Shown here in pieces: positions 20,180-64,000 of a stretch of 64,000 nucleotides of DNA. The notes under the pieces are model-generated. The model did no database searches and was not told the DNA's origin. It worked only from the letters and a program-made list of their open reading frames with translations. Positions within the stretch are counted from its first letter, which is position 1. Each line of letters starts with the position of its first letter. Made by a program: the position numbers and the translations under genes. Where the stretch lies: NCBI GenBank assembly GCA_040285855.1, contig JAUFOQ010000006.1:1426001-1490000 (forward strand). The letters run 5' to 3'. The DNA is from Eukaryota sp. GEM-RC1. Its lineage: Eukaryota.

Positions 20180-22322
20180 TTAAGAGATTCAATGATTCGG
20201 ATCTGGTCATTCTTCAACCATACCTTTAATTCTGCTAAGTTCTCAAGTAATCTCGAAGACATTCTTGCACGTCTTGCCGTTTGAATTGAACCAGTTACAG
20301 AAAAAAATGATTGACAAGGAACTGATGTTGCTGGTGCAGACAAAAACTCATTGCAAGAGCGTATAACTCTGGGAACGCAGACCTGTTATCCTTCCACCAA
20401 ACAACAGGATCAGTTGACAAGGGAACTGTGCCTTCGGATAAGTATTTGTCCAGTTCATCTGCATGAACTAGTTCTCTATTGGAGTTTCTTTTCGATTGTA
20501 TAATTTCTCAAAGTGTGAAGTCTTCTTAACAGTTTTTGTTCTAGCAACAGGTTGGGCATTGTTCTCAACTGGTACATTGTCCGATTGACGATCTTTTGAG
20601 ATCTTGGCAGTAAGCTACGGATTCCTTTAATGTTGTTTTTCACTTCGAGATCTGATATCGGTAACATGTTTGTTTTGAGTCTCGGATCAAGGATGGAAGC
20701 GGTAGCAGCGTAGAAATCGTAAATCAAGTCAGAGTATTTCTCTCGAAATACTTGACACATTTTTTCAGCTGCTTCGTTGATGACGAATGGGAACTCGGGA
20801 TCCGTGGATGCTTGGACAATAAGCTTGTGTAAGTCATCTAAACAAAAGAGCACATGTGAGGCTGTAGCAGTCTTTGAAGCTGAAAGATCTTTAGTAGTAT
20901 CTTTAAACGGTTTAAGAAGTTGAATTAAGTTGCGAATAGTGGAAAGAGAAGATGAATCGATACAAAGGTAACTGTATCCGTTTTCTTGTGAAAGAAATTG
21001 TTCAATTGAAAATGCCTGTTCAACATAGCTTTCCAGTATCATCAATGTACTGTTCCAGCGTGTTTTGACATCCAAAGGAATTGTTTTTGGGGTAGCAATT
21101 CCGTTGCTTTCACAAAATTCAACATAAGTTTGCTTAAACAGAGAGGAAGTATGCAGTAAGACACAAAAGTTCCTTGCACTTTGAATGTGTTCTTCGAAAA
21201 TTTCGTGCGCTTTTCCTACAACAATGTTCAAGACATGAGCAATACAACGTCTAGAAAACATGTAAAAGTTCTGTTCTAGCAACAATTTAACAGCATTTGT
21301 CATGTTGGACGCATTGTCAGTAACGATACTGAAAACTTTAGAAATATTAAATTCCGCACACACTTGTTCAATGAATAAAGCAGTTTGCTCTGCAGTGTGT
21401 GGATGAAGGCATTGGAGTAGATCAAGGGGAAGACTGACCAACTGATGGTTCTCAGAAATACAGTGGACAGTTACTGCTAAAAAAGAAGTATTAGCACGAG
21501 AAGTTTAGTAGTCAACGGTAATAGACGGGAGCGATTCAATTTTGGCTAGGAACGTTTTGATCTCTTCTTTAACAGTTGTGTTTCTGGATATGATTCTCTC
21601 TCTAAGAGTGTTCCTTACGGGTACATTCGGCATAAGAGGAAGAGATTGAGTGCAAGTTAGCAAATCAATGAATGAGTCCGATTCTACAATGTTTAGTGAA
21701 ACGTTGTTCAAGACAAAGAAGTGAGTAAGTCTGTCGTCGAACGAGGGGGTTGATTTCTTAATGCCAAGAAGTTCAGTAATAGGAGCAGTTCTTTGAGGAT
21801 TTCCTTCTAACCATCCGTTGTGATAGTTATCTAGATGTAACTTTAATCTAGAAGTAGTAACCCGAGATTTATTAGACGGTTTTCCTTCAACATAAGGACA
21901 AAGAGAGCAAGTTGTTACCTTACCTTGATTGGAAGAGCTAAAGTGCTTCCAAACAGCAGAGGTTTTTTTCTTTAAAGTCGACGGGGATAGTACATCAGAA
22001 GAAGAGGATTGGGAGGGTTGGTCATCGTCACTATCATGAACATCAATAGGTGATGACATTCTCCTTGTACTTTGGTTAGGAAAAGAAACTAATGGGTTAT
22101 CAAAATCCATTTCTACTGATTCTTAATATGTAGAGTAGTTTTAATTATCAACTCGTTTATATACAATACAATATACAATGTAGTTCTACTTACATTTCCA
22201 TTTCCATATTATATTTCCGTTTCATTTCCATTTCCACATTCTCAAGAAATTTCGTCTATTTCCGCTTCCAGATGGAAATGGAAGTGAGAAATGTGGAATT
22301 TCATTTCACTTTGCCAAGTCTA
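20180..22322 (-). mobile_element. hAT transposon with BED-finger transposase (disrupted)
   Basis: SAVWKHF...CSLC...HLDNYH BED finger, ITVDY*TS, IVTDNASN, RCIAHVLN, DVKTRWNS, LDPRLK and a C-terminal WW...APATSV dimerisation domain. In-frame TAA at 21505 plus frameshifts. 5' TIR TAGACTTGGCA ends at 22322 with TTCCA subterminal repeats; 3' TIR not found. Confidence 0.88.
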
Positions 22323-23612: not shown

Positions 23613-24960
23613 AGCCAATAAGGTAACCTTCCTACAAAACTATGAAATTGCAAAAACAAACAAATAATAATAAGACTAAATCGAAACGACTTCATCCCTA
23701 TCCGGTAAAAGATTACGTTTTTCAACATTAACCTTCGCACCAAACCTGTACAATTTCTCCATAATCGAGAGAAATGGAAAGGCATATTCCGATATATGGA
23801 AAACACAATACGGTTTTTCATTCAGCCATTCTAAACTTGGGCTTCTTTTCTTTACACAGTTCTTCGAAATCCTTGAAAAATTGATCACCAGCAGGACTAA
23901 TCGTTCCAAAAAGAGAAACAGCAAAAGGTTGAAACACAAATTTGGAATCTGAGTTTCGATTTAATTCTTCTATTGGAGAGTCAAACCTGGAGTGTTTGAG
24001 CTTTTCAGCAGCTTTTAATAGATTAAGACAAGAATCTAATATCCTACTAACACAAGATTTGTTACAAACATCTACTGTAGAAAAATCCATTAATGATTGA
24101 CTCGACTTTAGCCACGGATTATGGAGATCCCCTATTTTTTGATCAGTAAATTCATTTTTTGAAAGATGATTCAAAACTGGTTCAACTTTAGAGTGAAAAT
24201 CATGTGCTTTAAACATGGAATAACAAGAATCACGTACACCATCATGAATTACTGCACGTAGATGAATAAAATAACGACAATTAATTAAATGACGAAAAAC
24301 ACCATTAGCTCCAACAAGAGGAAGTTGAATAGTTTATTAAATTTACAGGCCAAATAGCCAAACGAAGACGCAGATTGATCATCCAAGCTTCATCAGATAA
24401 ATGAAATCCATACACTTTTTGGAATTTGAGAAATAAATCCAGAAGGTCCACTATTACAATTGTCAATCAAAAAAGCAGCAAACTCGGGACTATTAGTTTT
24501 AGCCATGCTAATACGATTATTAAAGTCCAAGAGTTCAAACTCCTTGTAAATATATTTTGCAGCTTACATACAGCAGAGGGTAAAAGCAGAATCTTGAATT
24601 TTCAAGTCTGAATTTTTGACCATTTAATAGAGTTTTTTTAAACATAAGATTTGGCAACTTTCTTGTTGGACAACCGCTTTTAAAATGCCATCATAAGGCC
24701 TCAAGGCCTTAAGGTACTTAACAATGACCCATTAGATGATAGAATGCCGCTAAAAAGTTGGAAATCGTTGATTACTGCTGTATCTGTCCAATATTAGCAA
24801 AAGTGAACTATAAATACTTAAGTTCTGCCATCATTGAATAACTTCATCAAGCTCAAAATTGGAGTAGAGTAAATAAATACTAAACCTCTCAATTCTTGTA
24901 TTCTATTTCTTCTGGAGTTAAAATTCAAAAGAGCACCATAATACGCATGTTTTTAATCAC
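23613..24960 (-). mobile_element. RLE non-LTR retrotransposon, longer degenerate 3' fragment
   Basis: Broken frames give YGFHLSDEAWMINLRLRL..WP, HLINC...IHDGVRD and KVEP...DFSTVDVC...AEKLKH. The upstream limit is approximate. Confidence 0.75.
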
Positions 24961-43641: not shown

Positions 43642-44184
43642 GAATGACTACCAGAAAGGGTTGACTGAAATTAACGTTGGTTGCCGATTTCACTATACAC
43701 TACATTTGTACTACATGTTAGACTTGGCAATGTTAAATGGATTCTACTTTGACAGTCTACTACATGTAGCTAGAGTAGTTTCAAATGCAAAATTCCACAC
43801 CTACCTTTAAGCATTCTCATTACAGTTTGGCACATTGTGCCACTCATTTACAAGCCACGAGCTAACTTATAAGATTCAAGAATTCTAGGGTACATCTTTC
43901 TATGCCTTATGTGGACAATTTCTTCTGTCATGTCCTGGTTGGTTACATGTCATACATTTACAAGGACTTTTAGGAGGCACAGGTCTTATCTGTCAGGTGA
44001 AATATGTTTAATCAATTGCTGTAAATAAACTGTGAAATATTAATATATTATCAAAAAAACAAATATTTCATTTGTAGAATCAAAATTGAGTACATGAACA
44101 ATGACGTGATTGGAAAGAAGCCATTTAGTGTTTCATAACAACATTAAAACGATGTTCAAAAAACTGAAAAAATTCAAATACTTG

Positions 44185-46600: not shown

Positions 46601-47199
46601 GATGATTATCCTTAATTAAAAAGTGGATTTATGTGCGGAGAAAAACACACAAGAAAACGACAAATAAATGAAGATTATCAAAACAAATTATCAGACGAAC
46701 TACCTTATACCGATACCGAAAAGTAGTTACCACCAAACAACTTGGCCAAGATGGAATCAACATATCTGAACATAGACAAAAATAGAAAAATCAAATTTAC
46801 TCTTCCAGTACGATCTGTTAAGCTTCCTGCCAAATTCTGAACATAAATATTCAAACAAATTTCAAAACTCCTTGCTAGAAGAACCAAAATTTCCGTACAA
46901 AGAAACTGCAAAAGGCTGAAAGACAATATTACAGTATTATGTCTTCGTGAATTCAATGCAGCAATTTCATGTACTGTACATGTACATGTATATTATTATA
47001 AAACAAGATTATTAAAATTTTCACCACTATATTGGAAACTTAACTTGAAAATTTAATCAAATGTTCGTTGCTGCATGAGTCTCATATTGTTCTGAAAATT
47101 TAGTACTAATTAAGTGGTACTAGTAGTCGTATGAATAGTGATTTCACATATAAGAAAGAACTGGGAACTGTGAATTTCATTCCAAATGCATTAGGACAT

Positions 47200-47330
47200 A
47201 ACCCTTCACATTTTCATGATCTCATGAGCAAGCTCGTAAGCAAACTCATGAGCAAAACTCACAGTTTGACAAATAAATGTCCTCATTCGCAAAGTCTTTT
47301 AAGACGAGCTAACTTCATAGATTCAAGATT
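47200..47330 (-). ncRNA. Candidate Fanzor omegaRNA scaffold / element right end
   Basis: Immediately 3' of the Fanzor stop. Contains a 7-bp inverted pair AGCTCGT/ACGAGCT (47231-37, 47304-10), short hairpins GTCTT-AA-AAGAC and GACA..TGTC, and two CTCATGAG palindromes. The position matches known Fanzor loci; boundaries are inferred. Confidence 0.4.
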
Positions 47331-50215
47331 CCTGATCTTTATGGTTTACGTGTGAGTCCTTGGGTACATCTTTCTTAGGCTTATTTGGACAAGTTGCTCT
47401 GTTATGCCCAGGCCGAAAACATATACCACACTTGTTAGGACCTCTGACTTTTGTTAGAGGACGCTTCGCTTTACCCTTACCCTTACTCACAGTCTTTTTC
47501 TTAGGAATCTGATCTGTATTCCCGCCATCCACGACAGGTGTTGTTTGAGATTTTGGTCTCTCGAGGATGGCAGGTCTACCTTGACCTTGAATGGTTCCAT
47601 TTACAATATTGTAAATATTGATAGCAGAATTGAAGTCTCTATTCCAGAGGACATGGCATTTAGCACATTCAACTAAGCCCCATGGTGAGACTTTTTTGCT
47701 CTTCAATCTTTCTTTTGATAATGGCAACTGTTTGGTCCATTCATCATCAAAGTTACGCTCCACAATATTGTCTAATTGATTGTGTTCCATAATTTCCTTT
47801 TTTAATTCTTTCTCTTCCTTCTGTAACTTCTTCTTCCAATGAGGATCAGTGACTTTTATCCTTTCAGGATTGGAACAGATACCTTCGTCGTTTCTGGAAA
47901 CACATGCAGAGCAACATTTGCTGGTCTTAAATTCATCAACTAGGAACACTTTAAATCCAAATTTTCTCAATAATTTCCGAATTGAAGCACCTTTTACAGT
48001 CGATGCTTTACCTCTTCTTCGACGAAAAGCAGTGTCGTTCCAGTCTCCATACCCAACAACGACTTCATCTGGGTTTCCAAACTGGAGAGCAAATCTGTGA
48101 AGCATGTTTTTTTCACTTCGTTCCTTTCTTGAATATTGTGTTAAGCGTCTACGTCTAAACCACTTTTCTTCGTAAATTCCTTCAGTAGTTCTTTGATCAG
48201 TAGTGGGTGATCGTAATAAAGAACAGGTAATTTCTTTACCAAGCACAAAAGCAGAATACTGAGTCAAATCACAAGATTTACTGCCTGGTGAGTTAGAGCC
48301 CCATTGATCTAAAATTTGTTGCCCATTTATGTCAATGCGACTGCCATCTGGACTGTGGATAAATTGGGTAGAATATTGTTGTAACCGTTCGGATTCAGAT
48401 AAACGGTGGAGATTATATCGTCTTATTTTCTTCTCCAGCTTCCTCTTCTTTCTCTTAGCTCTTTTTCTTTCCTTCCTTGTTTTTATCTTTTCCATGGAGA
48501 CTTGTTCATATCTGCCTTGCGCTCCCCAGCAGTGTATCTGAATACTTTCCAATCATCACGATTTTTCAACTTGACAGTTGATGGTTTGTCAATAGTGGGT
48601 GCGTCTTTCCAATCCTTCAATTCCTTTTTTAATTTTTTCAAGCTTCCTTTTTTCTTTGATGATTTTGGAGAAATCTTTCTTCTTCTGAGATTGGCTGATG
48701 TATCGAAACCTTCGATTTTCTTTTCCTCCTCAGATTTTAAAGAAGCACAATACATCAAATCATGCTGATTAGGATCAATAGCAACAATTCTTTTGGATTT
48801 CAAGTTTAAGTTTTGAATTTCTGTGGAACTCAAAGAATCAATGTACCTTTGAGTAGCTGTGTAGTCAACTGCTTTCACCTTCTTATGAGGATTTCCTCTC
48901 CCATCAAGCAGATCTTTCCGCATCATCATTAAACTACAGCTAACTCCATCTGTAGAAATAGAACTGTATTTGAAGTCATGAGACAATGACTTTGGAAGAC
49001 ACTTTGGTTTCAAAACTGAGTGCCAAATATCTTTTCGAACGTCATCAAAGCTACCTTTAATTTCTGATGCATAAACTTCTTTAAACCATGTAGTATCCAA
49101 TCTGATATGATTAGGAATCAGTGATTTTGTTAGAGGAAAAGGATTATTGGCAGTAACACCAGGACAAGAGTCCTCAACAAGACGTTTCAAATACACTGCA
49201 TGACTTAAGAATTTCAAAGGATCTACTTTTTCAGCATAATAGATTGTTTTCTCCATTTTACCTTCAAAAAAAGTAAACAAATAGTTAAAAAATAGTAAAC
49301 TCAGTCTAGAATTGGGATCAGGAAACACTTCAACATCTTGAAAATTAATATTTGAAATTTCCCCATTAATGATCAACTGTCTGACTTCATTAAGCTTTGT
49401 ACACAACTCTTGTCGTTGATTCTTATCAGTAAGCTTGTTAAGTCTATCTTTTTCAGGGTAACCAAATTAAATACTTGAAAAACATATTCGTGAAAGTGTT
49501 CACTCATGTTTGTCTTGTAATTCGTTATAATTTCAGTAGCCATGTAATGCAATAAACGAGATAAACGATAACTACTGGGAAACACAATTCTATCAAGTCC
49601 AACAGATCGAGCAGCTAGTTCTAAACGAGGAATGTAATGCATCAAGAAATGTTGAGCAAACTGTTTTTGAGTTGAGGCCTCATTTGGTTTAGAAATTATG
49701 TTTGTTAACGATTCTTGTACAGTCCTAATATGATTCTGATTGTTTACAAGTTTGTGGTCCCTAATCGTCATCATAGACAACACTTGTTCCATTGATTTCA
49801 ACGTAAAAAAATTCTTCCAGTATGGCAATTCAATTTTGGCAGTTTGAATTTTAGTCCAAAGGTCAGGTTCAGGTTTAGGTTCATCACTCGCATCTTCAAT
49901 ATTTTCTAATTTAATAGGAGGAGTAGCAGCATCGATAGACTCTGAAGGTACATCTGTTTCTTCATCAGTTGACTCATCTGTATCAGAATTCATTTCTTCC
50001 TTAACAGTTACATTTGGAACAGTAGCAGGCAGTAACTTCTGAATGTATTCTAAAATACCTGAATGGTGAAAATTATGAACAAAAAATGTTTCAAAAAGAG
50101 AGTACTACGGACTCTTACTTGGTGAGCTCTCTTAACACGAGATTCAATAAATTTAACCTTCGCTTTGGATACAACATTGTCTAGTCGTTTCTTAACCACT
50201 TTCATTGGTGACTTT
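47323..50215 (-). CDS. Fanzor1 (eukaryotic TnpB-derived RNA-guided nuclease) moiety
   Basis: Y...EIITNYKTNMSEHF, FPLTKSLIPNHIRLDT, ISTDGVSCS, RuvC-I IVAIDPN, FRYT, VVGYGDW, RuvC-II FLVDEFKTSKCCSAC, zinc finger CAKC and RuvC-III WNRDFNSAINI. Confidence 0.92.
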
Positions 50216-53134
50216 GAACGTAAGGTTTGCTTTTTGGGATCCAATAGGTCAGCCAACAAGTATTCAATCAGAGGTAATTGTTGAATTGAGTTGTTCAACA
50301 ATAGCGGTTTTGTCGATTCCTTGGCCCAAAGTTCATTTACTTTCTCCAAATTTCTTACAAATTTCTTTTTAATCTTATCGACCTTCACTTTGGGATTGTC
50401 TGGAACTAAAACATTAATACTGTCAATTATGCCATGCAAGTTTTGGACATTATTGACTAATTGAACTTCATCAGGATCAGAGTCATGCTTAAGTTCTTCC
50501 AAGCGTTTGACAGTTTCATTTTTAGAAAAATTATTCATTTCAAGAAAAATTTGAACAACATTTTCCAAAAAACGGCCACCAGTAAAGACATAAAAATTCT
50601 TCAATACAGCATTCAAATCGAGACTAAAAAACGGACCAAAAGTTGTTTCCTTACACCATTTGTTGAACCAAAAGGGAATATAGGGTTTAAATTCTGGAAA
50701 AGTAAACGTTGTATTGATTTTGAAGACTTGACAACGTGATACAAGAAAGGGAAATGTATCTAAGTGAAAGTCATAACTCACAAACAATCGCGGACAATGT
50801 TGAGTAATGAAGGAGATGAAGTTTTTAAGCATACTGGATTCACTATCTGAAATATGTAAAGTACACAAATCCAAATTTGTAGTCTCAAAATTGCCATAAG
50901 AAAATAAGTGTTTTTCATTAAACTCATTGTGATCAATGATCTGGATGGAAATTGATACAATCGGATCAACAGAAGAATCACGTTTAACTTCTAATTGATC
51001 TTCAGCTTCACCTTCAACAGTTTCAATGTCATCATCATCTTGAACAAGTTGAACATTATTGCCATTAATTCTTTCTTTTTTGGCAAAATCACTTTGAACA
51101 TGAATTAAACAAAAAGTTGGCAGATTGTTCCAAAGTAAAGGGGAATTAAGAAAGACTTGAACTTGTATTTCTTGTTCGATAGGCTCAGTATGTAGATTTA
51201 CTTCCATTTTATGGATTTCTTCTTGAATTGGCGATGGATACGACATAATGGAGGCCTGTGATTTTGGTGGTAATTCAGATGGTGGTAATTCAGATGGCGA
51301 TGATAGTTCAGATGGTGGTACTTCAGATGATTCCAATGTGGACATACGGCGGTAAGTCTTTCGTATTGGAGTGTCACCAGTTGAAACAAGGGAGCTGATA
51401 GTTCTAAATTGATTTCGTTGAATTAAAGGTGAACCTCGTGGTGATGGAACATCTGAAATTTTGGCTTTACTTTTTTTAGTGCTTAAACCAGTAGATGTTT
51501 TAGTGCTAGCAAGACGTGAACCTGTGAGAGGAATTGAAGTGGTTGGATGTTCTTTACCGGCAGGAGGTTGAATGGGTAACGATGGTACAATAGGAGCTAC
51601 TGTGGTTTGACGTTGTTGTAGATAAAGTGTCCTTTGTTGAGACAATACATCCAGAATTTTTTCACGAAATATGTTTGCTTGAAGTTCAGTGTTCACTTGG
51701 ACCAAATCAGACTCCACATACATCAGAGACGGAACGTACGTGAGTCTTTTAAAAAGTTCAACATATTTTTGAATATACGCAATGACATAAACTCCACAGT
51801 CGTTAGCAGACTGTGTTTTAGTCACAGGCACATAACGGAAAACATACCCCCATGGCACAAGTACTTCGGATAATATGTCTACAGCTGATTTTACCATAGA
51901 CTTACTCATATCGACGGTAGTTAACATTGGATCAATGAAGATCCATTCCTTTTCACAACAGTCTATAATGGCTAAACCCCAATGAGAACCAGTGACACCT
52001 TCTCTGGAATAATTAGCATTTCTAGTCATGGTATCACTAAGGGGAACAAAGAGATATTTGGAGTTTGTGATTTGATTTTTCTCAATTTTCGTCAACAACC
52101 ATTGATCTAGCGGGACATCTGGTGAAACAATGTATTGAAGCCATGTGGTCGGATGGATAAAACTGCTTTCAAAATCTAACCCTGCTTCTTGAAATATCAC
52201 TTTACAGTACTCCACTATCGCTTCGTCATCAAGCCATTGATTAGGATAAACTGAGTTTATGGCTTCTTGAGTTACGGGTCCTGGATTGGATTCAATATCA
52301 CCATCAGCGGTGAGGTCTTTTGGGAACGGAGGATGGGAAGGGATAAACAGGGGAGACGAGTACTTCATGGCAACAAATGTATGTGTTGATAAAACACAGA
52401 ATGAACTGTCCTTATCTAAACTCAACTGAGCCCGAAACCGTGCAATGGAAACAGTCACAAGTTGAGTCAGATAAGAACAGGATGGCGGCATCATCGAAGC
52501 AACGGCAGTGGAGGGAGAAGCAACGGCAGTGGAGGGGAAAGAACTGTCCTTATCTAAACTCAACTGAGCCCGAAACCGTGCAATGGAAACAGTCACAAGT
52601 TGAGTCAGATAAGAACAGGATGGCGGCATCATCGAAGCAACGGCAGTGGAGGGAGAAGCAACGGCAGTGGAGGGGGAAAGAACTGTCCTTATCTAAACTC
52701 AACTGAGCCCGAAACCGTGCAATGGAAACAGTCACAAGTTGAGTCAGATAAGAACAGGATGGCGGCATCATCGAAGCAACGGCAGTGGAGGGAGAAGCAA
52801 CGGCAGTGGAGGGAAAGAACTGTCCTTATCTAAACTCAACTGAGCCCGAAACCGTGCAATGGAAACAGTCACAAGTTGAGTCAGATAAGAACAGGATGGC
52901 GGCATCATCGAAGCAACGGCAGTAGAGGGAGAAGCAACAGCAGTAGAGGGAGAAGCAACGGCAGTCATCACAGCAACGGCAGTAGAGGGAGAAGCAACAG
53001 CAGTAGAGGGGGAAAGAACTGTCCTTATCTGAACTCAACTGAGCCCGAAACCGTGCAATGGAAACAGTCACAAGTTGAGTAAGATAAGGACATGATGGCG
53101 GACAACATCTGTTTGGATGCAGAACAAACGACAT
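47323..53134 (-). CDS. Polyprotein 1 (~1,930 aa after indel repair): repeat leader - 2A - Ulp1/SENP8-like protease - PolB-exonuclease-like domain - Fanzor1 - zinc knuckle
   Basis: ORFs 52826..53134, 50050..52632, 49373..49993, 48483..49406 and 47323..48552 are consecutive, and each break lies at a homopolymer run. 2A, protease, exo-like domain and Fanzor N-terminus lie in a single uninterrupted frame (50050..52632). Confidence 0.75.
52276..52335 (-). other. 2A/StopGo ribosomal skipping peptide 1
   Basis: HPPFPKDLTADGDIESNPG|P matches the D(V/I)ExNPG|P consensus with the usual upstream DL..DG. Confidence 0.9.
52403..53100 (-). repeat. Tandem array of ~138-bp hairpin units (5 copies, the last partial) in the leader of polyprotein 1
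   Basis: Units start (+ strand) at 52403, 52541, 52680, 52817 and 53016. Periods 138/139/137 differ only in a G-run; the 199-bp unit has extra ~21-bp sub-repeats. Confidence 0.95.
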
Positions 53135-53248
53135 TTATACTGTAGGAGGAAGGAAAATGAAATCCCACACAGACTGTAATGGACATGTGTGTGTGAATTC
53201 ACGTGTTAAAAAACGAAATCTGTAATAAAGTCTATATCAGAATTTCCC

Positions 53249-54766
53249 ATGTCCTACTCAATCTTCAAACTCAGAAATACTTCTGAACAAGAAAGTCGTT
53301 CCCGTACCATCAAAACATATATGAAACTTGTTGTAAAGCTTGCTGATAAGCATGCAGTTAACTTGTCAGTTGTTCTTCTTCCTTATGGAACATACAATTC
53401 ATGGAGAACTAAATCCATCCACATAACGGAAGTGTCAACATCTGACTTACCAGATGATCTTAAAAAGGGTACCATGGATTTTTGCCTCAACTACAAATCA
53501 GCCGTTGCCATTGTGCTAGATGTTGATCTAGAAACTGTTCATCTCTTTCCTTTTGATGGTTCTTATGAGAAGCGTGACATATCTCTTCCACTTCCTTCAA
53601 CAACTTTAACTCTAAATCATCTTAAGGATCTACTCAAAGACGTTAAACGAGTTACAATTGCTCGTTCCCCTCCTCCTCCTCAGCCTCAGTCTCCTCCTCT
53701 TTTACATGATTGTGACAATACTCGCTTTGACGATACTCCATCGCAAGTCGTTTTTCCTTCACCAAAACGTCGTATTGATAACTTCGCAATCAATCATATT
53801 CATTCTATTTTCTCTGAACCATCTGAAATAGTTCCTGTTCCAGTCAGTGATAATGCTAATTTATCTAAACCTATGAAACGCAAAAAACAACGTAACCCGT
53901 TGATTCTTTCTGTAGATTTAATCAGTGATCAGTTTTACATAAATTCAAAATTAAAATTTGAATTTAGTGATATTGAGAAAATGTTGACAAAGGATGATAG
54001 GGAAGGTAAAACACAACTCTTGTTGAGTTCTGAACTTGATTTCATTGTGATGCTTGCATTCCAAAAATTTAAATCAAGTAGGTACAAGTTCCTGCAATCT
54101 CAAGAAACTCAACAGTTGGTAGGTGATCCAATATGCTATGCCTTACATTCTGGTAAGGCCATTGTCGATACACTAAAATCAGGAAAACGAATTCTTGCCC
54201 CATTATGTTTGGTGAAAGAACATGTTCCTGGTGATGCAGGATCTGGTCATTGGATTCTTATTGAATTGTTTCTAAATGAAGCAAATGTATTATTATTCAA
54301 TATTTATGATTCTTTGGATTACTCATTAACCACTGAATTAATCGTTAATCCTTTTAGAACTGTTTATGGATGTGGGGAAACAAATCTGTTTGCAAGATTA
54401 CCAGAGTATAAGGTGGACTATTATATACCTTTTGCACAGTCAACATCGTCTCTTATCTGTGGATGGATTGTCTGTTTGAATGTTACTTTAATTTTACAAG
54501 GATTAATGGTTGATGCACGTCAGGAACAAAATCAGACAAAATTATACACTAACAGATCAAGAAAAAATCTATGTCTTGTTATGTATGATCTACTTCAGAG
54601 TGTACAACCTGATTTGGTGACAGAACAAAATGTAATTGATGGTTCAACAACAAAATTTGAAAACAAATCGTCAAAGACAAAAGACGAAAATGAAGTTTTA
54701 GGGAAAAAACAGGAAAACGAAGAATTAAAACCACTGCAAGTGCTTTTGGAATCAAAAATACTTTAA
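53249..54766 (+). CDS. Ulp1/C48-family cysteine protease (second copy)
   Basis: C-terminal GSGHWILIEL...IYDSL...AQSTSSLICGWIVC carries the H-D-Q-C catalytic set; N-terminal half not recognised. Confidence 0.75.
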   Translation: MSYSIFKLRNTSEQESRSRTIKTYMKLVVKLADKHAVNLSVVLLPYGTYNSWRTKSIHITEVSTSDLPDDLKKGTMDFCLNYKSAVAIVLDVDLETVHLFPFDGSYEKRDISLPLPSTTLTLNHLKDLLKDVKRVTIARSPPPPQPQSPPLLHDCDNTRFDDTPSQVVFPSPKRRIDNFAINHIHSIFSEPSEIVPVPVSDNANLSKPMKRKKQRNPLILSVDLISDQFYINSKLKFEFSDIEKMLTKDDREGKTQLLLSSELDFIVMLAFQKFKSSRYKFLQSQETQQLVGDPICYALHSGKAIVDTLKSGKRILAPLCLVKEHVPGDAGSGHWILIELFLNEANVLLFNIYDSLDYSLTTELIVNPFRTVYGCGETNLFARLPEYKVDYYIPFAQSTSSLICGWIVCLNVTLILQGLMVDARQEQNQTKLYTNRSRKNLCLVMYDLLQSVQPDLVTEQNVIDGSTTKFENKSSKTKDENEVLGKKQENEELKPLQVLLESKIL

Positions 54767-55231
54767 AAAAATGTATTGACAGTGATAGAGAATAAATAGT
54801 ACAATATAGATGTATTTATAATTTTGTATAACAGGTAAGAATAACACAACGCATACACAATAATAATTGTACAATATTACAATGTTCAATTTTGCAGTTT
54901 GAACTGTGTCAGACGTAGTCTGAATACCAATGTTTTGTTACATAGTTATTACTTACAGAACAATCCGTGAATTTCATCCACCTGAAATCTGACAGAAATT
55001 TGTTACAGATTTAGTATGTCAGAAAATGTGACATATTAAACTAGACCAATTTGTTACATATTCAGTGTAGATGTGGTAGCATAGTTTATGTGAAAAATCA
55101 TGGTATAAATTATAAATTTAGACCAGATAAACCCAATCAATCAACTTCTTCGTTGATTGATAAATAAAGAAAAATAGTTATAAAGTATATTGTTCTACAT
55201 AATAAAAAAACATCAATGAATTATTGAAAGA

Positions 55232-58200
55232 CTATATAAAATCAAGTGCTTGCAATCCTGAGGGTCTAAAGAAGTGTTTTTCCAAATTTTGCTTTTTGTC
55301 TTTTTCACGGATAGAATCGTAAAAGACAACGATTTTTTGATTATGTTCATACAAATTGTAAACATGTCTGGCATCATTTGGCAGATCAAAGATTATACAA
55401 AGATCAGCCTGAACAGAATGGTTAACCGCTAATTGAGTAGTACTGATCAATAAAACAGGATAAGTCTGTTCATCGAATGTTTTCAGACTTGATGTAATCT
55501 TTCGTGGTTTTCCACCCTCTAGTGACACAACTTTAAAAGAAATCTCAGGACGAAGCCTTGAAAGTTTCCTTACTTTGTCAACTGAATCAGTTGTAATTAC
55601 AACTTTTGTAACTCAAATATAGTCAACAAATGCTTCACATTGTTGATTTTTTCATCAAAATTCCATCTAGATGAAAGAAACTGAAGTCTTTTCGTCGTAT
55701 CAATGTCGATGGGATGAGCACTTTCTTCAACAACAGGAATCTCAACTTGTTGAACTTGTTGAGTCGATTGAACAGTTAAAGCATGTAGTTCAAGACTTCG
55801 TTGTTCGTAAATATTTTTGAATCACAATAACGAACATCATGAACTTCTAATGGTACACCAGAAATACCAATCACAGATAATGCTGAAAGCATTAACAGTG
55901 TTCCATCCTTTTCAGAACAATGAAAGAATTTAAATCATTGCAAAAATCGATTTTTAACAGTTGACCTGTTAACTCACCACTTGAACAATCAATAATAAAT
56001 TGAATCTGTTTCTTTGGTAGTTTCAAACCGAAACCAACACAGAACCCAAATTCCGTGATGTACATTATTGTGTCATAATGCTTAACATACACTGCATCTA
56101 TAATTCTGTCATCTTTGTGACAGCAGCAAAGTTCCCATACAGGTTGTTCACCAAGCAGCTCCCTTTCAAACAAATTTAGCTTTCGGATTGTACAAGTGCC
56201 GACAACTAGAACGAAATCGTCATAGCACTTCAAACTTTTGAATTCTTCATCACGATCAATTTCAGACATGTTTAAATCCATTAATGTTGAAAAATCTGAA
56301 CAATCAACACAATTTTTTTCATCTTCCTGCACAAAAATAATCAACAACAGAGTCTTCGTTGCGACAACAAAACAATTTTTGCAGCAGCCATGTCAATACA
56401 TTGAGAATCAAAACTGTCTCTGGCCAACGGCAACGGTAATACTCGTCGAATAGTCTTTTGTTTGTCCATTTTTGGCTTGTATTGAATCATAAATATGGGC
56501 CCTTCAAAAGCAATCAGTATGGCCTGGTAAAGCAATTGATGATGAAGTGCAAACATAGTCAATTGATTGTCAAATGGTTTACACTGTGGTCTATCTTGAT
56601 CAATACTGCGACTGAACCTTCGGAGTTCTTTATCAATGTTGTAGACTACCAATCGTAATGTAACATTCAACACAGGAGTAGGAGTAGGAGTAATAGCAGA
56701 AAAAAATTCTGTATGGAGAGTTTCGACAACGTCGTTGTCTATATTCAACGTTCCAATGGCAATTTTTGATTCAAATGAAAAAACAACATAGAAAGTTCTC
56801 ATTTCTTCACGTGTAAAATTTAAGATTTGAACATTTTGTCCTAAATATTTAGCAGTATGAGAAGAGGCAGTACAATACGACTTAGTCCAAGATGACAAAT
56901 CCAAAGTACTTGTAGCTACTGGTGACTGGGGCAATGCAGTAGTTTCACTAATCATGGGTTCAGGAAGGTCAGCGTTTTCGGGGATCATAGGTTCTTCAAC
57001 CTTGTGTTGGGCTAAGGTAATTTCAGAATATACGACTTCATTAAGTGTAGTACATGATGATGCACATAAAGGACACGCAGGATCAAAGCACATCAACAGG
57101 TCCTGTTCATCATTGACTTGGAAATTTAGTAACTGGAAATGATGTTTCCTTCCATTCACATAATCAACGGTAACTGGTGGACTGTTACTTTTCAGTAAGT
57201 TGAAATCAAGAATAATAATGTTGTCATACCATGATTTCAACACAGTTATGGGAACCTCACCTTGTTCCGTTAAATATACCAAAATACGTAATCGATTGAT
57301 ACATCCAAAGGTGGATTCGATTGGTAACTCATGATAAGGCCAGTAAACATTCCAGACACGTTTTACCTCAAAAGATCCATGGATATCCAGCTCATTACTG
57401 TATGCAATTAATTGTTTGAACCTCGAATCTTGACAATGCATTGGTGTACCAACCTTGATAGATGGCTTTGCCATTTCCGAAACCAAATTGATATTGAAGT
57501 TCATTAGCCATACGATGAACAAGTATTGACATGAAGAAGGAATATGAGACAAGAATTGTGGAAACTTATCACCAACAGAAATACCATTATGATAACCTAG
57601 ATCTGTAGGTACAGGGAACAGTGATTTGGCACATTTAACTTCCTTGGACCACTCATTATCAATACGAGTGTATTGAGTCAAATCACTACAAGGACTTGAC
57701 ATAATGTCGAAAGTTAATTTAATAGAATTTCTTGGTATAGTCAAATGTACGATATTACCCCACTGTAACAATTGGTTGTACATGTTCCAAAATTCTCGGT
57801 CATTGACAACTTTCAATGCCATTGATAAATTGAATCGTGATTTGATAATGAATCTATGCCAATCAAGATGGAACGTAAGAGAAAAATTTTTTAATGAATC
57901 AAGAGTTCCACGGCACTTGTTGACAAACAGTAGATTTTCAATTTCAGTTGTATTCTCTGAATGCAACATAACAACAGTGCTTTGGGTTTCACCTGGAGCT
58001 AGATCTGAAGTAATTTTAACTTTTAAACATAATGTCTCTGAACGAGTACTTTCATCATCACTGTCATTAACTTTTAGAGATTTGGAAGATTTGACAATAT
58101 TTTGTTCATCAAACAATTTCTTTATAAAGTTGTTAAATTTTTCTCCATTGACATAACCTTCCAACTTCAACCTAACTGAGAATGAATTGTCTACTACAGT

Positions 58201-61200
58201 TGAATGGAATGACTTATTGGGATAAGAAGCCACAATGGCTTGAAAGAGAGACGTCGTTGAATTTGGAGGTTCAAAAGAGAAGAGAAGATTGTTGATTCAT
58301 TTTGAAACTTATTGAGTGTAACTTCAGAAGGATTTGATATGAAATTGACAAGTTTTAGAGCAATGCCTTCCAATCCTTTTAATTGATTATTGAGATGAGC
58401 ATTAGAATCTTCCATATCCACGAAACGTGAAACTAAAGATCTTAGTTCATTTAAATATCGCTCTAGTTTTTTCAGAAAAACTAATTTAGATAAATTCTTA
58501 AGGGCTTGATCATTAAGGGTTTGATCACGTGTTGGGACAATATCCATATTTTTAATAAATTCGCCACAGAAAAAGTAATGAACCAAGGATAATTTGAAAA
58601 ACATGTCTGAACGTACAACTTTAGATTCTTCAATAGTAGAGAGTTGTTTGAGTAAAGGAATCGATTGTGAAAAGGTATACAAATCGTAAAATGACATAAA
58701 AGTTGTTCGAGAGCAACGAATGAACGACATAGAATTGATACCCGCAAGAAGAATCAATCCAGGACACAGGTAATTGTTTGTTAAACAGAAAAATAAAAAC
58801 TTGAAGTTGTAGAATGAAATATTGGCATTGGTGCAAATCTTTCCGAGATAAGTAAGGGGAGAATTTAGTTGGTTTTTTGAAAGAACATTAGTGCGGAAAA
58901 GAACATCAACCGAAGATATGATGTTGTCGCTAGAAGGAACATCAGGCAGTTGACTGATAAAAAATTCAGGGGGATTTGGACGATTACTGATTAAAAATTG
59001 AGGATTTTCAGCAATCTGTTTGATTGTTAACAATGGCTCAATCAACGAACAATTTAGAATTTCTGGTTCGTCGTAATGCAATCTCGAAGTTCCATTCGGA
59101 TATAAGTTTGTCTGCACAAGACGTAACGAAAGTCCAGGAGAATTTCTTCCAGCACGACCAGAGCGCTGGTCCAAAGAAGCAATGGAGCAATGATGAGTGT
59201 CGAGAAGGTCATCTGCATCAGTTTGCTTTGACAAACCACAGTCAATGACAAATTTGACCCCATCAATAGTCAATGAAGATTCTGCTATATTGGTAGCAAT
59301 GACAATTTTAAATTGTTTTCTCGCTGGTTCAGCCACAGCTGCATCTTGTTGGACTGAATCCAGACTTGAATACAACGGATACACACCTGGCTTCTCAGAA
59401 GAAGCTGGGATGTATAGACCACCAGATCCACTTTTTTCTGACTCTCATACTCATTCTCAATAATATTACTGAGAGTTGTAATTTCTGGACTTCCAGGAAG
59501 AAACACGAGCAAAGTAAATCCTGCACATTCTGGTTCAAACTGAAAAAGTTTCTGAGACAGGGAGTAATAACAGAGACATAGTCGGGCTAACGCTCTGAAA
59601 TTGATACTTTTATATGAAAGAGGATTACAGTTTTGAGTGAAATAGTCGTAGTATAAGTTCACATTTAAGACAAAATAAGTGTAAATATCAATAAAATGAT
59701 CATTGAAAACCTGTTGAAGTGTAGGTTCAAAAATCGGAGTTATCACAAGTTTTGATATTAACGGACCATAATGAAATTCATTTTGACGAACAAAATTCAC
59801 ATCAAGGACAATCAGTGGATTGGTTCTTCCAGCTGCATGGATAGTATAGGAGGGTTCGGTATCTAAATAATTTCCTTGTGTAAGGTAATTAAAACAAGGA
59901 TTAGGTTTGTCCATAGTTGCCGAACAGATTACCACTCTCAATTTTGAATCAGTTTGGGAAATTATTCTCATTTGTGCTAATAAAATGTCAATGTCACATT
60001 TTCTTTCATGAACTTCATCCACCATGATAGTTGCAAATCGAGACAGATTGCTATTGTTTGTCAGAAATTTAGAAGTGAAGGCAGCGGTTTGAACTTCGAT
60101 AAATCTTGGAGAATGTACTGGAATGTTCGTATTCTTGTTGCCTGTTCGGTATCCAGACAGAGGAAAATCACTATCACATAAATCATTGATAAAATTGGAG
60201 AGTTTTGTGGCTGGTAGAACTCTAGGTTGACACACAATGATTGGTTTCAAAGTAACCATAACCACAACAACACCAGTTAAGACAGATTTCCCGGAACCTG
60301 TTTGACCAGAAACAATAAACGGAATAATATTGTTGTCTTTGACATGATTTTGACCAACAACACGAAACAATTGATAAAAAGTGTCTTTTCCTTCATTAAC
60401 AAATGCAATACGGCAGTTACGTGCTTTTGAAATCAACTGAAAGCAAGAAAACACCAAGTGGAAGTAGGCGTCATTACTGTCAACAGTATGATTCCACTGT
60501 TCATTTAGTGTCAAAATTTCAAGAATTTGTGTTAGTAAATCACTTTCGCGGACATAAGATTTCAAATGTGCTAATTTAGAGCTTACTTTAGGAAAATCAA
60601 TTGATGTAAATGTACACGTTGGTTCCTCTGGTGAAGTCACAGTGCTTGGGAAATTGTAAACATAGCGGGGAGGTCGTCTCCATTGAAGATAATGATCTAA
60701 CAACATCTTGTAATCACTATGATTTGACGCCAACCATGACAATGAGACTAAGTATTCCATTGCCTGGAAACAGAAAGACATTAAAGAGAGATCTTTTTTT
60801 TCTTTTTTTGTTCATAATGGTAATGGGCACAAAATGACAGTTGGAACATGAGCATACTCATAGTTTCAATTTTGTTTTCGAAAAAATCTTGATATACAGT
60901 AAACTGATGTCGGTAAACTTCTTTCCGTTGTACAACTTGTTTAGTTTCAGGGTCTTTAATTTCGACAATGCGGCTTTCTTCATCTGTATCCACAAAAGTA
61001 TAGTGCTCGAGAAAATGACAAAAGTTAAAAAATCTTGAAAGTAATTGAGAAGTGTAGGACGAATCTCTGATATTATTAAAATCATCCCACATAATACTAA
61101 GAGAAGTTTGATTATATAGATCATCAAATCCGTCATCATTTAAAGGATCGTCTGTAGGATCGTCAGTATGTTCAAAATCAGAATCTTTGACATCAACATC

Positions 61201-62808
61201 AGGTTTTTTGGGGGCTTCTTTTTCAATTAATTCAATAACATGAGCAATATCAAAGATTAACATTTTGAGTTTATAACCAGCTTTTGACTTTGCAAACTTT
61301 TCAATAACTTTTTGGTTTTCTTTGTACATTTCCAAAGTAAAATGATTATTCGTACGATCATACACTTGAAGGTTGAGTTTCTTCTCCTCCACAACAAATT
61401 GCAGATGGAGCATTGTTAATAAAATGTCCAGCATAACCTCAGGACGTACCAAAACTTTAGGGTTGATATTTTGATACAAGGATGTGATACTTAATGAAAC
61501 ATCACTAAGTCTAAAAGTTTGGAAGGGACAATCATTATAACTGTGACCAGGAAGAAGGCAGAAGAGACATGGAGCAATAAAAATGCAAAACGATTCACGA
61601 AAAGAAGGTTGTTTTTGAGGACAATGGGGAGGCATCTCATATTTGAATCCAAGAGGCTTAATCGGTAAACTCACAGTAGATTCTCGATTAGGGTCACACA
61701 ATTGCAACCAATATTTATGGAGGGATTCCAACGCTCCATCATAATTGAGCAAGTAATGATTAGCATCTTGTTGACATTCAATCAACTCCGATTCATAGTG
61801 TTTGGCCATGATGTAATTTTCAATTCTCCAATTACTTGGCGTGTCGCCAGGTTTGCAACACTCTTGCATAATTTGGGCCAGGAACGAGCGTCGTGATTCA
61901 TTGTCTGGATTGGGAATGTGATCTGGAGCGAGATCAGTTAAGTTTTCGGATTCATCTATAAAAACATGATTCATACATGAACAAACTTGGAAACCAGGTG
62001 TTCTTCCAGATCTTAGCACTGGATAAGCAAAAGTTTCATGTGGAATACGGCAGTAACGATGCAATATGCCCATGTGGTATTTAGTTCTTTGATTATGTTT
62101 CTTTTGTTTTAGCTGAGTTTCTTCTGTTGGCGGTTCTTCTGTTAGAGTTTCTTCTGTTGGCAATTCTTGTGTTGGCGGTTCTTGTGTTGGCGGTTCTTCT
62201 GTTGGCGGTTCTGGCAGAGATGGAGGAGGCGATGGTGACACAGAAGTTCTTCTGGGTCTCTTTACTTCTGGGGATGGTAAACGATCATGGGGACCTGGAT
62301 TCTGCTCAACGTCTCCATCGATAGAGAGATCACGCTTCCATGATGTGGACGAGAGGATAGAGCACAGAATAAGCGGAGACGACATCGGGAAGCACGTATC
62401 CACACATTTCTTCAACCCACCATCCATATCCCGTGACCGTGCTATGGAAACAGTGTTTGGGTGATGTGATGAAGCAATGGCGGATGTGGACGAGAGGATA
62501 GAGCACAGAATAAGCGGAGACGACATCGGGAAGCACGTATCCACACATTTCTTCAACCCACCATCCATATCCCGTGACCGTGCTATGGAAACAGTTTTTG
62601 GGTGATGTGATGAAGCAATGGCGGATGTGGACGAGAGGATAGAGCACAGAATAAGCGGAGACGACATCGGGAAGCACGTATCCACACATTTCTTCAACCC
62701 ACCATCCATATCCCGTGACCGTGCTATGGAAACAGTGTTTGGGTGATGTGATGAAGCAATGCCGGATGTGGACGAGGCGAGGGGTGTTAGCAGTATAATA
62801 GAAGTCAT
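55232..62808 (-). CDS. Polyprotein 2 (~2,500 aa after indel repair): repeat leader - 2A - Pro-rich - CCHC knuckle - DEAH helicase - unknown - degenerate RecA-like helicase domain
   Basis: Abutting ORFs 60781..62808, 59285..60781, 58194..59384, 56341..58233, 55892..56347 and 55232..55528 on one strand with little or no intergenic space; joining them into one gene is inferred. Confidence 0.65.
58900..60330 (-). CDS. DEAH/RHA-family RNA helicase core within polyprotein 2
   Basis: Motifs I GQTGSGKS, Ia CQPR, II DEVHER, III SAT, IV LVFLPG, V ATNIAESSLTIDGVKFVIDCG and VI QRSGRAGR; one frameshift at the run near 59431-59437. Confidence 0.92.
62115..62212 (-). repeat. 15-bp coding minisatellite (EEPPT/QEPPT) just after 2A peptide 2
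   Basis: EPPTEEPPTQEPPTQELPTEETLTEEPPTEE. Confidence 0.85.
62290..62340 (-). other. 2A/StopGo ribosomal skipping peptide 2
   Basis: WKRDLSIDGDVEQNPG|P matches the D(V/I)ExNPG|P consensus. Confidence 0.92.
62342..62776 (-). repeat. Tandem array of 141-bp units (3 copies plus 12 nt) in the leader of polyprotein 2
   Basis: Units start (+ strand) at 62342, 62483, 62624 and 62765; copies are nearly identical; 47 codons each, frame preserved. Confidence 0.95.
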
Positions 62809-62958
62809 TGGAGTGGGAAAATTATGGAGCTGTAAACAACTATACTGTACTGATAGAACAAGGAATTCTCATGTCTTCACAACTACATTTACAAGGATCG
62901 CTTTGTGTACACTTTTATTTTCTCTTTGATACATGTAGAACAATTTATTACTATGCGT

Positions 62959-64000
62959 TTATTCTAAATATTGATGTTGATAAAGTAAAACATAGCCATT
63001 TAAAGAAATCTCAGTTAATACTGTCTGTTCGTCTACACCTTTCTTGCAATCACTATTGGTATCATGTAACCACCAAGAACCTTCTTTTTCCTTTGCATAT
63101 GTCACACAGTGACCGTCAGCAAGGGAATCATAATGACAGATCGCAGACAGCAGTCTGTATGTGTATTTTTCTTCAACACTACTTTTGGTCTTGGTTGACA
63201 CTTTGGCGGTTGAGGTTCGACTGGTACTTCATTCCCAATCACTACCTCTAACAAAATGCTGACTCCCACAATTTCTTTCATTTTCATTAGAAATGTCAAA
63301 GACAGACAATTCTTCTGATGTTGGATAATGAGACAATGTGTAAATGTCCTTAAGTGGCAGTTGTGAGTTGATTTCATTGGTAGGGGAAAACTCAATCGAT
63401 TCTGAACCCAATTGTGCTTCAGAAGACAGGAATAGATAGAGTGATAGATTTGAAGAAATAATAACTGGTTGAGGATGTCCAGTCAGTCTAATGATAAGAG
63501 CTTTTGGAAGAGAAGCAAAAGTTTCAGTAATTTCTGATTTTTGTTCAGGACAAGTAGCACAAATTTTTTCTTTTCGAAAAGGTAGATGAGCTTGCAACAA
63601 TGATTCGAGATCGGTTGGTCTAGAAGGATACCGCCTTTGGATACTTTCCTTGTTAATTTCCAAGGCGAAGTGAATGTTAGATGTTGGATCAGTCCCACAC
63701 CAAGAACATTTTGTTGTTGTTTTAATACAGAAACAAAATGCATTAACAGCACAAGAATGCTTTAATTTTTGAGTTATCAACAATTGATCTAAATCTTGCT
63801 GAAGTGATGATTTGACATCTAACTGAGTCTGAACTTTTTTTGGTGATGGTTTCTCATCTAAATCATATCCATAATATTGGAAGTCTGTAGTATCAGTTTC
63901 TTCTGATTCAGACTGTGGTTCAAATTTTTGACAAAAGAGTGTAATTCATCATTTGATGAAGATGGCAAGGTGGTGCGGAATTCCTTGTCAAGTGTTTTTA
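62959..64000 (-). CDS. Ubiquitin-specific protease (USP/C19), C-terminal part; broken by indels and probably starting beyond the window
   Basis: CSWC and CATC zinc pairs, FASLPKALIIRL, His box LSAICHYDSLADGHCVTYAK..GSWWLHD and the terminal GYVLLY box. Cys box not seen. Confidence 0.75.

What the first reader, a model, noticed from the sequence alone, without database searches (positions are those of the whole stretch)
52388..62776. Two different leader arrays share a 25-nt core and two flanking motifs conserved at nucleotide level: candidate new structured RNA element
Seen: the 138-bp and 141-bp units are otherwise dissimilar, but both carry the sense-strand core ACTGTTTCCAT(T/A)GCACGGT(TT/CA)CGGG, identical at 22 of 25 positions. 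Copies start at 52431, 52569, 52708, 52845, 53044 and at 62430, 62571, 62712. Both also have GCC(G/A)TTGCTTC upstream. ATTCTGTG(T/C)T(T/C)TATC lies downstream (52388-52402 versus 62356-62370) and is read in different frames in the two genes (SFCVLS versus ILCSI), so the constraint is on nucleotides rather than peptide. The core folds as ACUGU-UUCCAUWGC-ACGGU, and the loop UCC could pair with the downstream GGG. Inference: a cis-acting RNA motif (translation element, ribozyme or protein-binding site) or an internal promoter, amplified independently in two genes.
Basis: partly seen in the sequence, partly recalled or inferred. Interest (0 to 1): 0.9.

Follow-up and report, generated by a model that had tools for sequence, protein, structure and literature searches.

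The report
Swappable hairpin leaders before 2A peptides
Two genes of a multicopy, likely mobile element in a protist begin with tandem repeats that share a 25-base motif predicted to cap an RNA hairpin, just ahead of a predicted ribosome-skipping (2A) signal that would let these leaders be amplified and swapped without changing the protein.

Summary
The shared 25-nt core is real: 8 minus-strand copies, 22/25 identical, 0/1000 shuffles. The flanking motifs are weak (28/1000) or chance (229/1000). The core is read in the same frame in both genes (TVSIARxR). Both arrays lie inside the ORF, just upstream of a DxExNPGP 2A motif. One gene is 2A–Ulp1–dead exonuclease–Fanzor, the other 2A–DEAH helicase; both are multicopy in one protist. 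Among paralogues several leader types join several protein bodies at the 2A. A third leader type is compatible with the core in a shifted frame (0/2500 shuffles), and a radical V>D change occurs in 14/24 units, so the constraint looks nucleotide-level. V>D would reinforce this fold. There is no Rfam or ribozyme match and no copy in three public collections. Best reading (0.45): an mRNA stem-loop signal in exchangeable leaders that 2A insulates from the protein. Rivals: internal promoter, ancestral relic. True covariation is not shown because no further DNA was available.

The parts
52388..53134 (-). Leader array 1 (type A): five hairpin units separated by a 21-nt minisatellite spacer, inside the 5' end of the reading frame (first ATG 53134; frame broken here by +/-1 changes in a poly-C run, in frame in paralogues)
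52406..52480 (-). Predicted long hairpin of the last array-1 unit (about 21-bp lower stem), centred on the core
   Evidence: 1 of 500 arm shuffles folds as well
52431..52455 (-). 25-nt core, array-1 version; further copies at 52569-52593, 52708-52732, 52845-52869, 53044-53068
52388..52402 (-). 15-nt downstream motif (single copy in array 1; statistically marginal)
52276..52299 (-). 2A/StopGo core motif DIESNPGP of gene 1
50050..52632 (-). ORF: leader, 2A, Ulp1 (C48) protease, PolB-type exonuclease domain with changed acidic residues, start of Fanzor
47323..50104 (-). Rest of the same polyprotein in three frame-shifted pieces: Fanzor/TnpB-family nuclease
   Evidence: intact homologue P0126
62342..62776 (-). 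Leader array 2 (type D): three 141-nt in-frame units
62393..62488 (-). Predicted long imperfect hairpin of the last array-2 unit, centred on the core (not beyond arm composition: 70 of 500 arm shuffles fold as well)
62430..62454 (-). 25-nt core, array-2 version; further copies at 62571-62595, 62712-62736
62356..62370 (-). 15-nt downstream motif (also 62497-62511, 62638-62652)
62290..62313 (-). 2A/StopGo core motif DVEQNPGP of gene 2
58194..62808 (-). Gene 2: leader, 2A, Cys/His-rich region of no Pfam family, DEAH-box helicase, in three frame-shifted pieces (paralogue P0046 covers them as one 1629-aa gene call)

Best explanation
The 25-nt core is the shared, predicted apical stem-loop of a long hairpin in the 5' coding leader of two polyprotein genes, and it likely acts on the mRNA as a docking signal for a protein or the translation machinery, while the adjacent 2A motif would cut the leader-encoded peptide away. 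SHOWN: the shared core; its place inside tandem leaders directly upstream of a 2A motif; multicopy gene families; mixing of leader types and protein bodies at the 2A. PREDICTED: the fold (CUG/CGG stem, U-rich internal loop, CC/GG, 7-nt loop AUWGCAC, on top of a 20-27-bp helix). INFERRED: ribosomes start at an AUG in or before the array, read the open frame and skip at NPG/P, so the mature Ulp1-exonuclease-Fanzor or helicase protein starts at the same proline however many units or whichever leader lies upstream. This would free the leader to evolve under RNA constraint, to be multiplied (several docking sites, more expression or stability) and to be exchanged by recombination at the 2A codons. 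The binding partner is unidentified. An RRM-type protein is the first candidate, because the array-1 loop is the AUUGCAC heptamer known from U1A.
For: Core far above chance. Same apical fold predicted in both unlike contexts, P 0.78 and 0.98, and as the alignment consensus. Array-1 hairpin z -2.8 and -3.8; 1 of 500 arm shuffles folds as well. The sense strand folds better than the antisense in all three units tested (-33.9/-27.2, -30.6/-28.3, -34.1/-29.4 kcal/mol), and the apical fold is not predicted with DNA parameters. V>D lies inside the core in 14 of 24 type-A units from 10 proteins. Its only single-base route turns a U.U mismatch into an A-U pair where array 2 has U-A and raises the apical fold to 0.99. 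The four changes in P0018 together keep the fold (0.98). The type-B leader shares 5' start, flanks and 2A context with type A; its peptide fits the 19-nt core with 2 edits in another frame: 0 of 2500 shuffles in the homologous slot, 2 of 400 shuffles and 15 of 400 body windows over the whole unit. Leader-by-body mixing in 41 proteins: B, C and E each precede two or three different bodies. A conserved 5' element followed by an N-terminal 2A is the layout of L1Tc (PMC5814959, passages).
Against: No DNA-level covariation: only two independent DNA versions exist here, and all five core pairs are invariant in them. The paralogue changes are inferred from amino acids. Of 9 distinct type-A changes at paired or facing positions, 5 keep or gain a pair and 4 break one (36 of 142 possible changes keep or gain; the 3 'keep' changes are transitions). 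Of 7 type-D changes, 2 break and 1 keeps. The array-2 hairpin is not beyond composition (z -0.2 and -1.1; 70 of 500). The core is in the same frame in the two window genes. 13 of 15 further leaders tested show no trace of the core; the 2 that do are type B, so it is not required for a 2A leader. No expression, probing or binding data.
Confidence: 0.45

Rival explanations
1. The units are DNA-level internal promoter or enhancer monomers, like rodent L1 5' monomers or the Pr77 promoter; the core is a transcription-factor site and 2A makes transcripts from any unit give the same protein.
For: Tandem 5' units that differ between families and are exchanged are typical of L1 (PMC5381506, passages). 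Pr77 is an internal Pol II promoter upstream of a 2A (PMC5814959). Units of types A-E each carry an in-frame Met. Frame-independent conservation fits DNA as well as RNA.
Against: The core sits at the centre of a long sense-strand hairpin in both contexts; sense folds better than antisense, and the apical fold is not predicted with DNA parameters. The common V>D change fits the RNA fold. A 9-mer shared upstream of both arrays is not significant (269 of 2000).
Confidence: 0.2
2. The core is a relic of a common ancestral 2A-bearing leader, or a short gene-conversion tract, with no function of its own; arrays accumulate because anything in frame upstream of 2A is tolerated.
For: Types A and D align loosely along the whole unit and up to the 2A. 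Most other leader types are also tandemly amplified without the core. The synonymous contrast (1 of 7 vs 5 of 9) rests on few codons.
Against: The core (22/25) is better kept than the 2A codons (25/39), appears to survive a frame shift in type B, and stays at the hairpin apex although the arms differ.
Confidence: 0.2
3. The constraint is on the peptide TVSIARxR (targeting or ribosome-pausing role of the released leader peptide).
For: Same frame in both window genes, and the loop's variable base is a synonymous third position. Type C has TVS-H/P-LR. N-terminal 2A leaders can act as signal sequences (PMC4981915, search listing only).
Against: V>D in 14 of 24 units; 6 of 7 shared codons are identical; type B fits the core in another frame.
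Confidence: 0.08
4. The unit is a self-cleaving ribozyme of an undescribed fold that defines the 5' end of an uncapped RNA, as L1TcRz does.
For: Position at the 5' end before a 2A parallels L1Tc; strong conservation of predicted unpaired bases.
Against: No Rfam ribozyme family at E up to 10. Relaxed HDV, hammerhead, twister and hairpin descriptors found nothing on either strand (written from recall, no positive control). The arrays lie downstream of an in-frame ATG. No reverse transcriptase domain was found in the ORFs scanned.
Confidence: 0.07

Closest known systems
Trypanosoma L1Tc/ingi Pr77 signature plus N-terminal 2A (PMC5814959, PMC3894237; passages read)
   Same: A short conserved nucleotide element at the 5' end, shared by otherwise different mobile elements and followed by a 2A near the N-terminus of a long ORF.
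   Different: No HDV-like fold found. The element is tandemly repeated and lies inside the ORF. The cargo is Ulp1/exonuclease/Fanzor or a DEAH helicase, not endonuclease plus reverse transcriptase.
Rodent LINE-1 5' monomer arrays and 5' UTR replacement (PMC5381506, passages)
   Same: Tandem 5' units of variable number; different families use different units on related bodies.
   Different: L1 monomers are non-coding CpG promoters of about 200-650 bp. Here the units are 81-198 nt, in frame, end in a 2A, and the shared part is a predicted hairpin apex.
U1A/SNF binding loop of U1 snRNA stem-loop II (PMC2203988, PMC5992148; passages)
   Same: AUUGCAC in a hairpin loop after a C-G pair (array 1).
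   Different: Array 2 has AUAGCAC, type B would carry an inserted base, and the predicted loop is only 7 nt. Giardia has no clear U1A, and metamonad U1 loops read CGCAUAC (Giardia) and UGCAUAU (Trichomonas) (PMC3510501).
Fanzor1 elements (PMC10530073, passages)
   Same: C-terminal TnpB-type domain; homologue P0126 matches the Spizellomyces Fanzor structure; multicopy; structured region after the stop codon.
   Different: Fused behind 2A, Ulp1 and a PolB-type exonuclease; no transposase seen next to it. The main text of PMC10530073 has no occurrence of 'exonuclease' or 'helicase'.

Membership tests
HDV-like ribozymes | Match to an Rfam HDV-like model | tested here: not met
   (E up to 1 on the window, up to 10 on each array)
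HDV-like ribozymes | Nested double pseudoknot with P1 partner, P2, P3/L3 and a catalytic C in J4/2 | tested here: not met
   0 hits on both strands of both arrays; descriptor written from recall, no positive control
HDV-like ribozymes | Self-cleavage | not testable with these tools
   needs an in vitro assay
Hammerhead / twister / hairpin ribozymes | Conserved catalytic core motifs or Rfam match | tested here: not met
U1A/SNF-binding hairpin | AUUGCAC heptamer in the loop | tested here: inconclusive
   present in 5 of 5 array-1 cores, absent (AUAGCAC) in 3 of 3 array-2 cores; definition from PMC2203988
U1A/SNF-binding hairpin | Loop-closing C-G pair | tested here: met
   predicted, P 0.79 and 0.98
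U1A/SNF-binding hairpin | Host U1A/U2B'' protein with this specificity | not testable with these tools
   no genome held; relatives diverge
Pr77-type retroelement leader | Followed by an N-terminal 2A | tested here: met
Pr77-type retroelement leader | Heads a non-LTR element encoding endonuclease and reverse transcriptase | tested here: not met
   Pfam of the downstream ORFs and paralogues shows C48, exonuclease, TnpB and DEAH domains only
Pr77-type retroelement leader | Internal Pol II promoter at transcript +1 | not testable with these tools
   no RNA data listed
LINE-1 5' monomer arrays | Tandem 5' units, replaced between families | tested here: met
LINE-1 5' monomer arrays | Non-coding units upstream of ORF1 of a LINE | tested here: not met
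   units are in frame with the ORF and the element is not a LINE
2A/StopGo peptides | DxExNPG/P motif in frame | tested here: met
   invariant in 12 of 12 aligned relatives for D, E, N, P, G, P
2A/StopGo peptides | Ribosome skipping activity | not testable with these tools
   needs a dual-reporter assay
Fanzor/TnpB nucleases | TnpB-type C-terminal domain | tested here: met
   PF07282 E 7.8e-9; P0126 vs Fanzor structure E 6.8e-7
Fanzor/TnpB nucleases | Structured guide RNA at the 3' end | tested here: inconclusive
   47000-47400 folds at z -2.0; partial second copy at 43857-43926

The most novel reading that the evidence does not exclude
A new expression architecture: a library of interchangeable, tandemly amplified structured-RNA leader cassettes written inside the ORF and insulated from the protein by StopGo. 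One cassette family carries an undescribed RNA motif (long helix, U-rich internal loop, AUWGCAC loop) that sets translation or stability of a Fanzor nuclease polyprotein and a DEAH helicase polyprotein of a large mobile element.
Probability: 0.3. Interest if true: 0.85.

Novelty: new variant of a known kind. Interest (0 to 1): 0.58.

Why it matters
2A/StopGo is described as mostly viral, with sporadic examples in retrotransposons (10.64898/2026.09.24.754024, passages). Here it heads a Fanzor-bearing and a helicase-bearing gene family and marks the point where leaders are exchanged. If the hairpin apex is functional, this would be a new RNA motif and a direct test of an open question: why mobile elements keep a 2A so near the N-terminus (discussed in PMC3894237). 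The answer suggested here is that 2A frees the first few hundred coding bases to act as RNA. The 2A-exonuclease-Fanzor fusion is also a new effector layout worth testing. A search for 'Fanzor' with 'StopGo' found 0 papers; 'Fanzor, exonuclease, fused, Ulp1' listed nothing relevant among the 20 of 120 shown. Supplementary 2A lists of the surveys were not seen and might contain these peptides.

Tried and rejected
No genome was held, no sequencing run was listed (no evidence either way), and no earlier scan findings were returned, so no further DNA copies could be read.

Pattern scans found 0 matches in viral contigs (19-mer), metagenome contigs and prokaryote genomes (degenerate 25-mer), and no blastn match in phages. 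Protein-guided scans gave no relative or only unrelated 2A-bearing contigs (23 + 15 + 1 loci); 0 of these 39 hold the core within 3 edits.

Rfam gave only two tRNAs and chance-level hits. A test for stems from peptide alone failed its positive control and was dropped. The downstream motif was not significantly compatible with leaders B, C or E (26-241 of 300 shuffles). The shared upstream 9-mer was rejected (269 of 2000). The sigma-70 and terminator scan was empty and is not suited to a eukaryote. The homologue search with gene 2 returned nothing although its cluster exists. Two Atlas searches gave no usable hit.

Considered and set aside: (a) mimicry of a tRNA-Ala anticodon loop (recalled idea; the variable base falls at the wobble position, but it is equally a synonymous site, and no partner triplet is conserved between arrays); (b) pre-miRNA (the conserved part is the apex, not the stem); (c) pairing of the downstream motif with the loop (6-7 bp possible by eye, but too close to the stem base in array 1; not tested). 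No structure prediction or complex job was run.
Full report
1. OBSERVATION. The 19-nt part of the core occurs 8 times without mismatch in the 64-kb window, always on the minus strand, against 0.03 expected; 0 of 100 shuffles reach 8. 0 of 1000 shuffles of one leader reach this against the other. The flanking motifs are weaker: 229 of 1000 shuffles reach the 10/11 upstream match and 28 of 1000 the 13/15 downstream match. The downstream motif occurs once in array 1 and three times in array 2. Array-1 spacings are 138, 139, 137 and 199 nt, explained by a C-run of 5, 3, 5 and 4 and a longer minisatellite spacer; array 2 is 141, 141. The core reads TVSIARFR and TVSIARSR, the same frame in both genes.

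2. CONTEXT. The window is eukaryotic (cullin-like, Skp1-like and kinase-like ORFs, recognised from recall; two tRNAs). Each array ends 40-90 nt before an in-frame DxExNPGP motif (52299, 62313), the only two full matches in the window. Gene 1 continues as Ulp1 protease and PolB-type exonuclease and, across frameshifts, as a TnpB/Fanzor nuclease ending at 47323. An unnamed homologue, P0126, has 2A, an exonuclease with intact acidic motifs and Fanzor in one 1473-aa frame; the window's exonuclease has lost its first acidic motif. Gene 2 continues as a Cys/His-rich region and a DEAH helicase; paralogue P0046 spans these as one gene call. All 9 hits of the first homologue search were proteins of the protist labelled Eukaryota sp. 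GEM-RC1. Five neighbouring window ORFs fall in 90%-identity clusters of 7-18 members, nearly all from that assembly. I take the label to refer to the free-living metamonad Skoliomonas sp. GEMRC (inference; 10.1101/2023.05.03.539051, passages). Helicase-family genes lie within 30 gene numbers of a gene-1-family gene in 9 of 13 cases (random mean 3.2, P about 0.001). The tail family (1 of 7) and the plus-strand Ulp1 family (5 of 14) show no such excess (only the members I saw). This suggests a large composite mobile element or shared insertion hotspots; its ends were not found.

3. LEADERS ARE EXCHANGEABLE. Paralogues carry many different leaders in front of the same kind of 2A: A (array 1), B, C, D (array 2), E, F and looser repeats in more distant proteins. 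Unit numbers vary from 1 to 8. Among 41 proteins classified, B precedes two bodies (8 and 3 proteins), C two (2, 1), E three (2, 1, 1), F one, A one (14) and D one (8). The gene calls show the arrays in frame with the 2A, though this sample is biased towards open frames. In array 1 only one of three frames is free of stops.

4. PEPTIDE OR NUCLEOTIDES? Three results point to nucleotides. (i) V>D inside the core peptide occurs in 14 of 24 type-A units from 10 proteins (the count includes the window's own gene call). (ii) Type B shares its 5' start, flanks and 2A context with A, and its peptide can be encoded by the 19-nt core with 2 edits in another frame: 0 of 2500 shuffles in the homologous slot, 2 of 400 shuffles and 15 of 400 unrelated windows over the whole unit. 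(iii) Shared codons differ synonymously at 1 of 7 positions in the core but 5 of 9 in the 2A (too few for significance). Against generality: 13 of 15 further leaders tested, all but the two type-B ones, show no trace of the core.

5. FOLD. In both contexts the minimum-energy structure is a long hairpin centred on the core, capped by CUG/CGG (plus U-A in array 2), a U-rich internal loop, CC/GG and the loop AUWGCAC. RNAalifold on six units gives the same apex with all five pairs invariant, so there is no covariation in the core (its three two-sided changes lie in arms whose alignment is uncertain). The array-1 hairpin is beyond chance (z -2.8, -3.8; 1 of 500 arm shuffles), the array-2 hairpin is not (z -0.2, -1.1; 70 of 500). 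Sense folds 2-7 kcal/mol better than antisense, and DNA parameters keep the array-1 lower stem but not the apex. The full spectrum is only suggestive: 5 keep or gain against 4 break among 9 distinct type-A changes at paired or facing sites (36 of 142 possible changes keep or gain). The frequent changes keep or gain, while the breaks occur in 1-2 units each. Type D has 2 breaks and 1 keep among 7.

6. MECHANISM. Most likely (0.45), the apex is an mRNA docking signal displayed on a long helix, and 2A uncouples it from the protein: translation through the open leader frame and skipping at NPG/P would give the same mature N-terminus for any leader type or copy number. The link of leader and 2A and the mixing are shown; the fold is predicted; skipping, binding and the effect on expression are inferred. 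The array-1 loop is the AUUGCAC heptamer that U1A contacts together with a closing C-G pair (PMC2203988, passages; PMC5992148, passages). But array 2 departs from it, and metamonad U1 loops differ and Giardia lacks a clear U1A (PMC3510501, passages), so I give U1A itself about one chance in eight. Rivals are an internal promoter (0.2), a functionless relic in a region that 2A makes tolerant (0.2), peptide constraint (0.08) and a new ribozyme (0.07).

7. COMPARISON. It works like the L1Tc Pr77-plus-2A layout (PMC5814959, PMC3894237, passages) and like L1 monomer arrays (PMC5381506, passages), but fails membership of both: no HDV-like fold, no reverse transcriptase in the ORFs scanned, and coding units. 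No Rfam family matches. No copy was found in viral, metagenome, prokaryote or phage collections, and 0 of 39 unrelated 2A-bearing loci hold the core. In four 2A surveys I read only term-search passages. 10.64898/2026.06.17.732966 has no hit for Fanzor, TnpB, metamonad or GEM; PMC12338488 none for Fanzor, GEM, protist or DNA virus; 10.64898/2026.09.24.754024 and PMC12846837 none for DNA virus. Their supplements were not seen. 'Fanzor' with 'StopGo' gave 0 papers.

8. VERDICT. The larger result is the architecture: exchangeable, amplified leaders ending in 2A on a Fanzor-bearing and a helicase-bearing multicopy gene. Function rests on prediction and on protein-inferred variants, because no further DNA or RNA data could be read. 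Novelty: new variant of a known kind; interest 0.58.

Noticed in passing
window 47323-52632 (-); P0126: Fanzor/TnpB fused behind 2A, Ulp1 and a PolB-type 3'-5' exonuclease. The exonuclease has lost acidic residues in the window's family but keeps them in P0126 (1473 aa, one frame) and P0119.
   Followed up: partly
window 47000-47330 (-) and 43857-43926: Structured non-coding region right after the Fanzor stop (z -2.0) and a short, roughly 80% identical second copy of the Fanzor 3' end: candidate guide RNA and non-autonomous remnant.
   Followed up: partly
window 62962-63945 (-): A ubiquitin-specific protease C-terminal part (PF00443, E 2.5e-8), interrupted by an in-frame stop, ends just upstream of array 2; the element probably continues beyond the window.
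   Followed up: partly
window 53249-54766 (+): Multicopy ORF (16 cluster members) divergent from gene 1, with no leader array or 2A. It has an Ulp1-like H-W motif by eye but no Pfam hit.
   Followed up: partly
window 55892-58296 (-): Multicopy ORFs downstream of the helicase (9 cluster members) with no Pfam or Atlas match; possibly the C-terminus of the helicase polyprotein.
   Followed up: partly
window 18829-19437, 23616-24224, 4768-5000, 46835-46926: Related remnants that resemble the 3' end of a restriction-like-endonuclease non-LTR retrotransposon (family recalled, not tested). Two are 94% identical inverted copies around a hAT transposase and two tRNA genes.
   Followed up: no
window 53136-53144 and 62841-62849 (-): The 9-mer TACAGTATA occurs only twice in the window, once upstream of each array, but is not significant in a pairwise test (269 of 2000).
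   Followed up: yes
proteins P0108, P0128, P0137, P0143, P0154: Further, unrelated tandem leaders in front of 2A-Ulp1 in more distant relatives; none fits the core. Each may hold its own RNA motif.
   Followed up: partly
window 1996-3525 (+), 20476-22110 (-), 7296-7715 (+): MULE transposase, hAT transposase with BED finger, and a retroviral-type aspartyl protease fragment: the window is rich in mobile elements.
   Followed up: no
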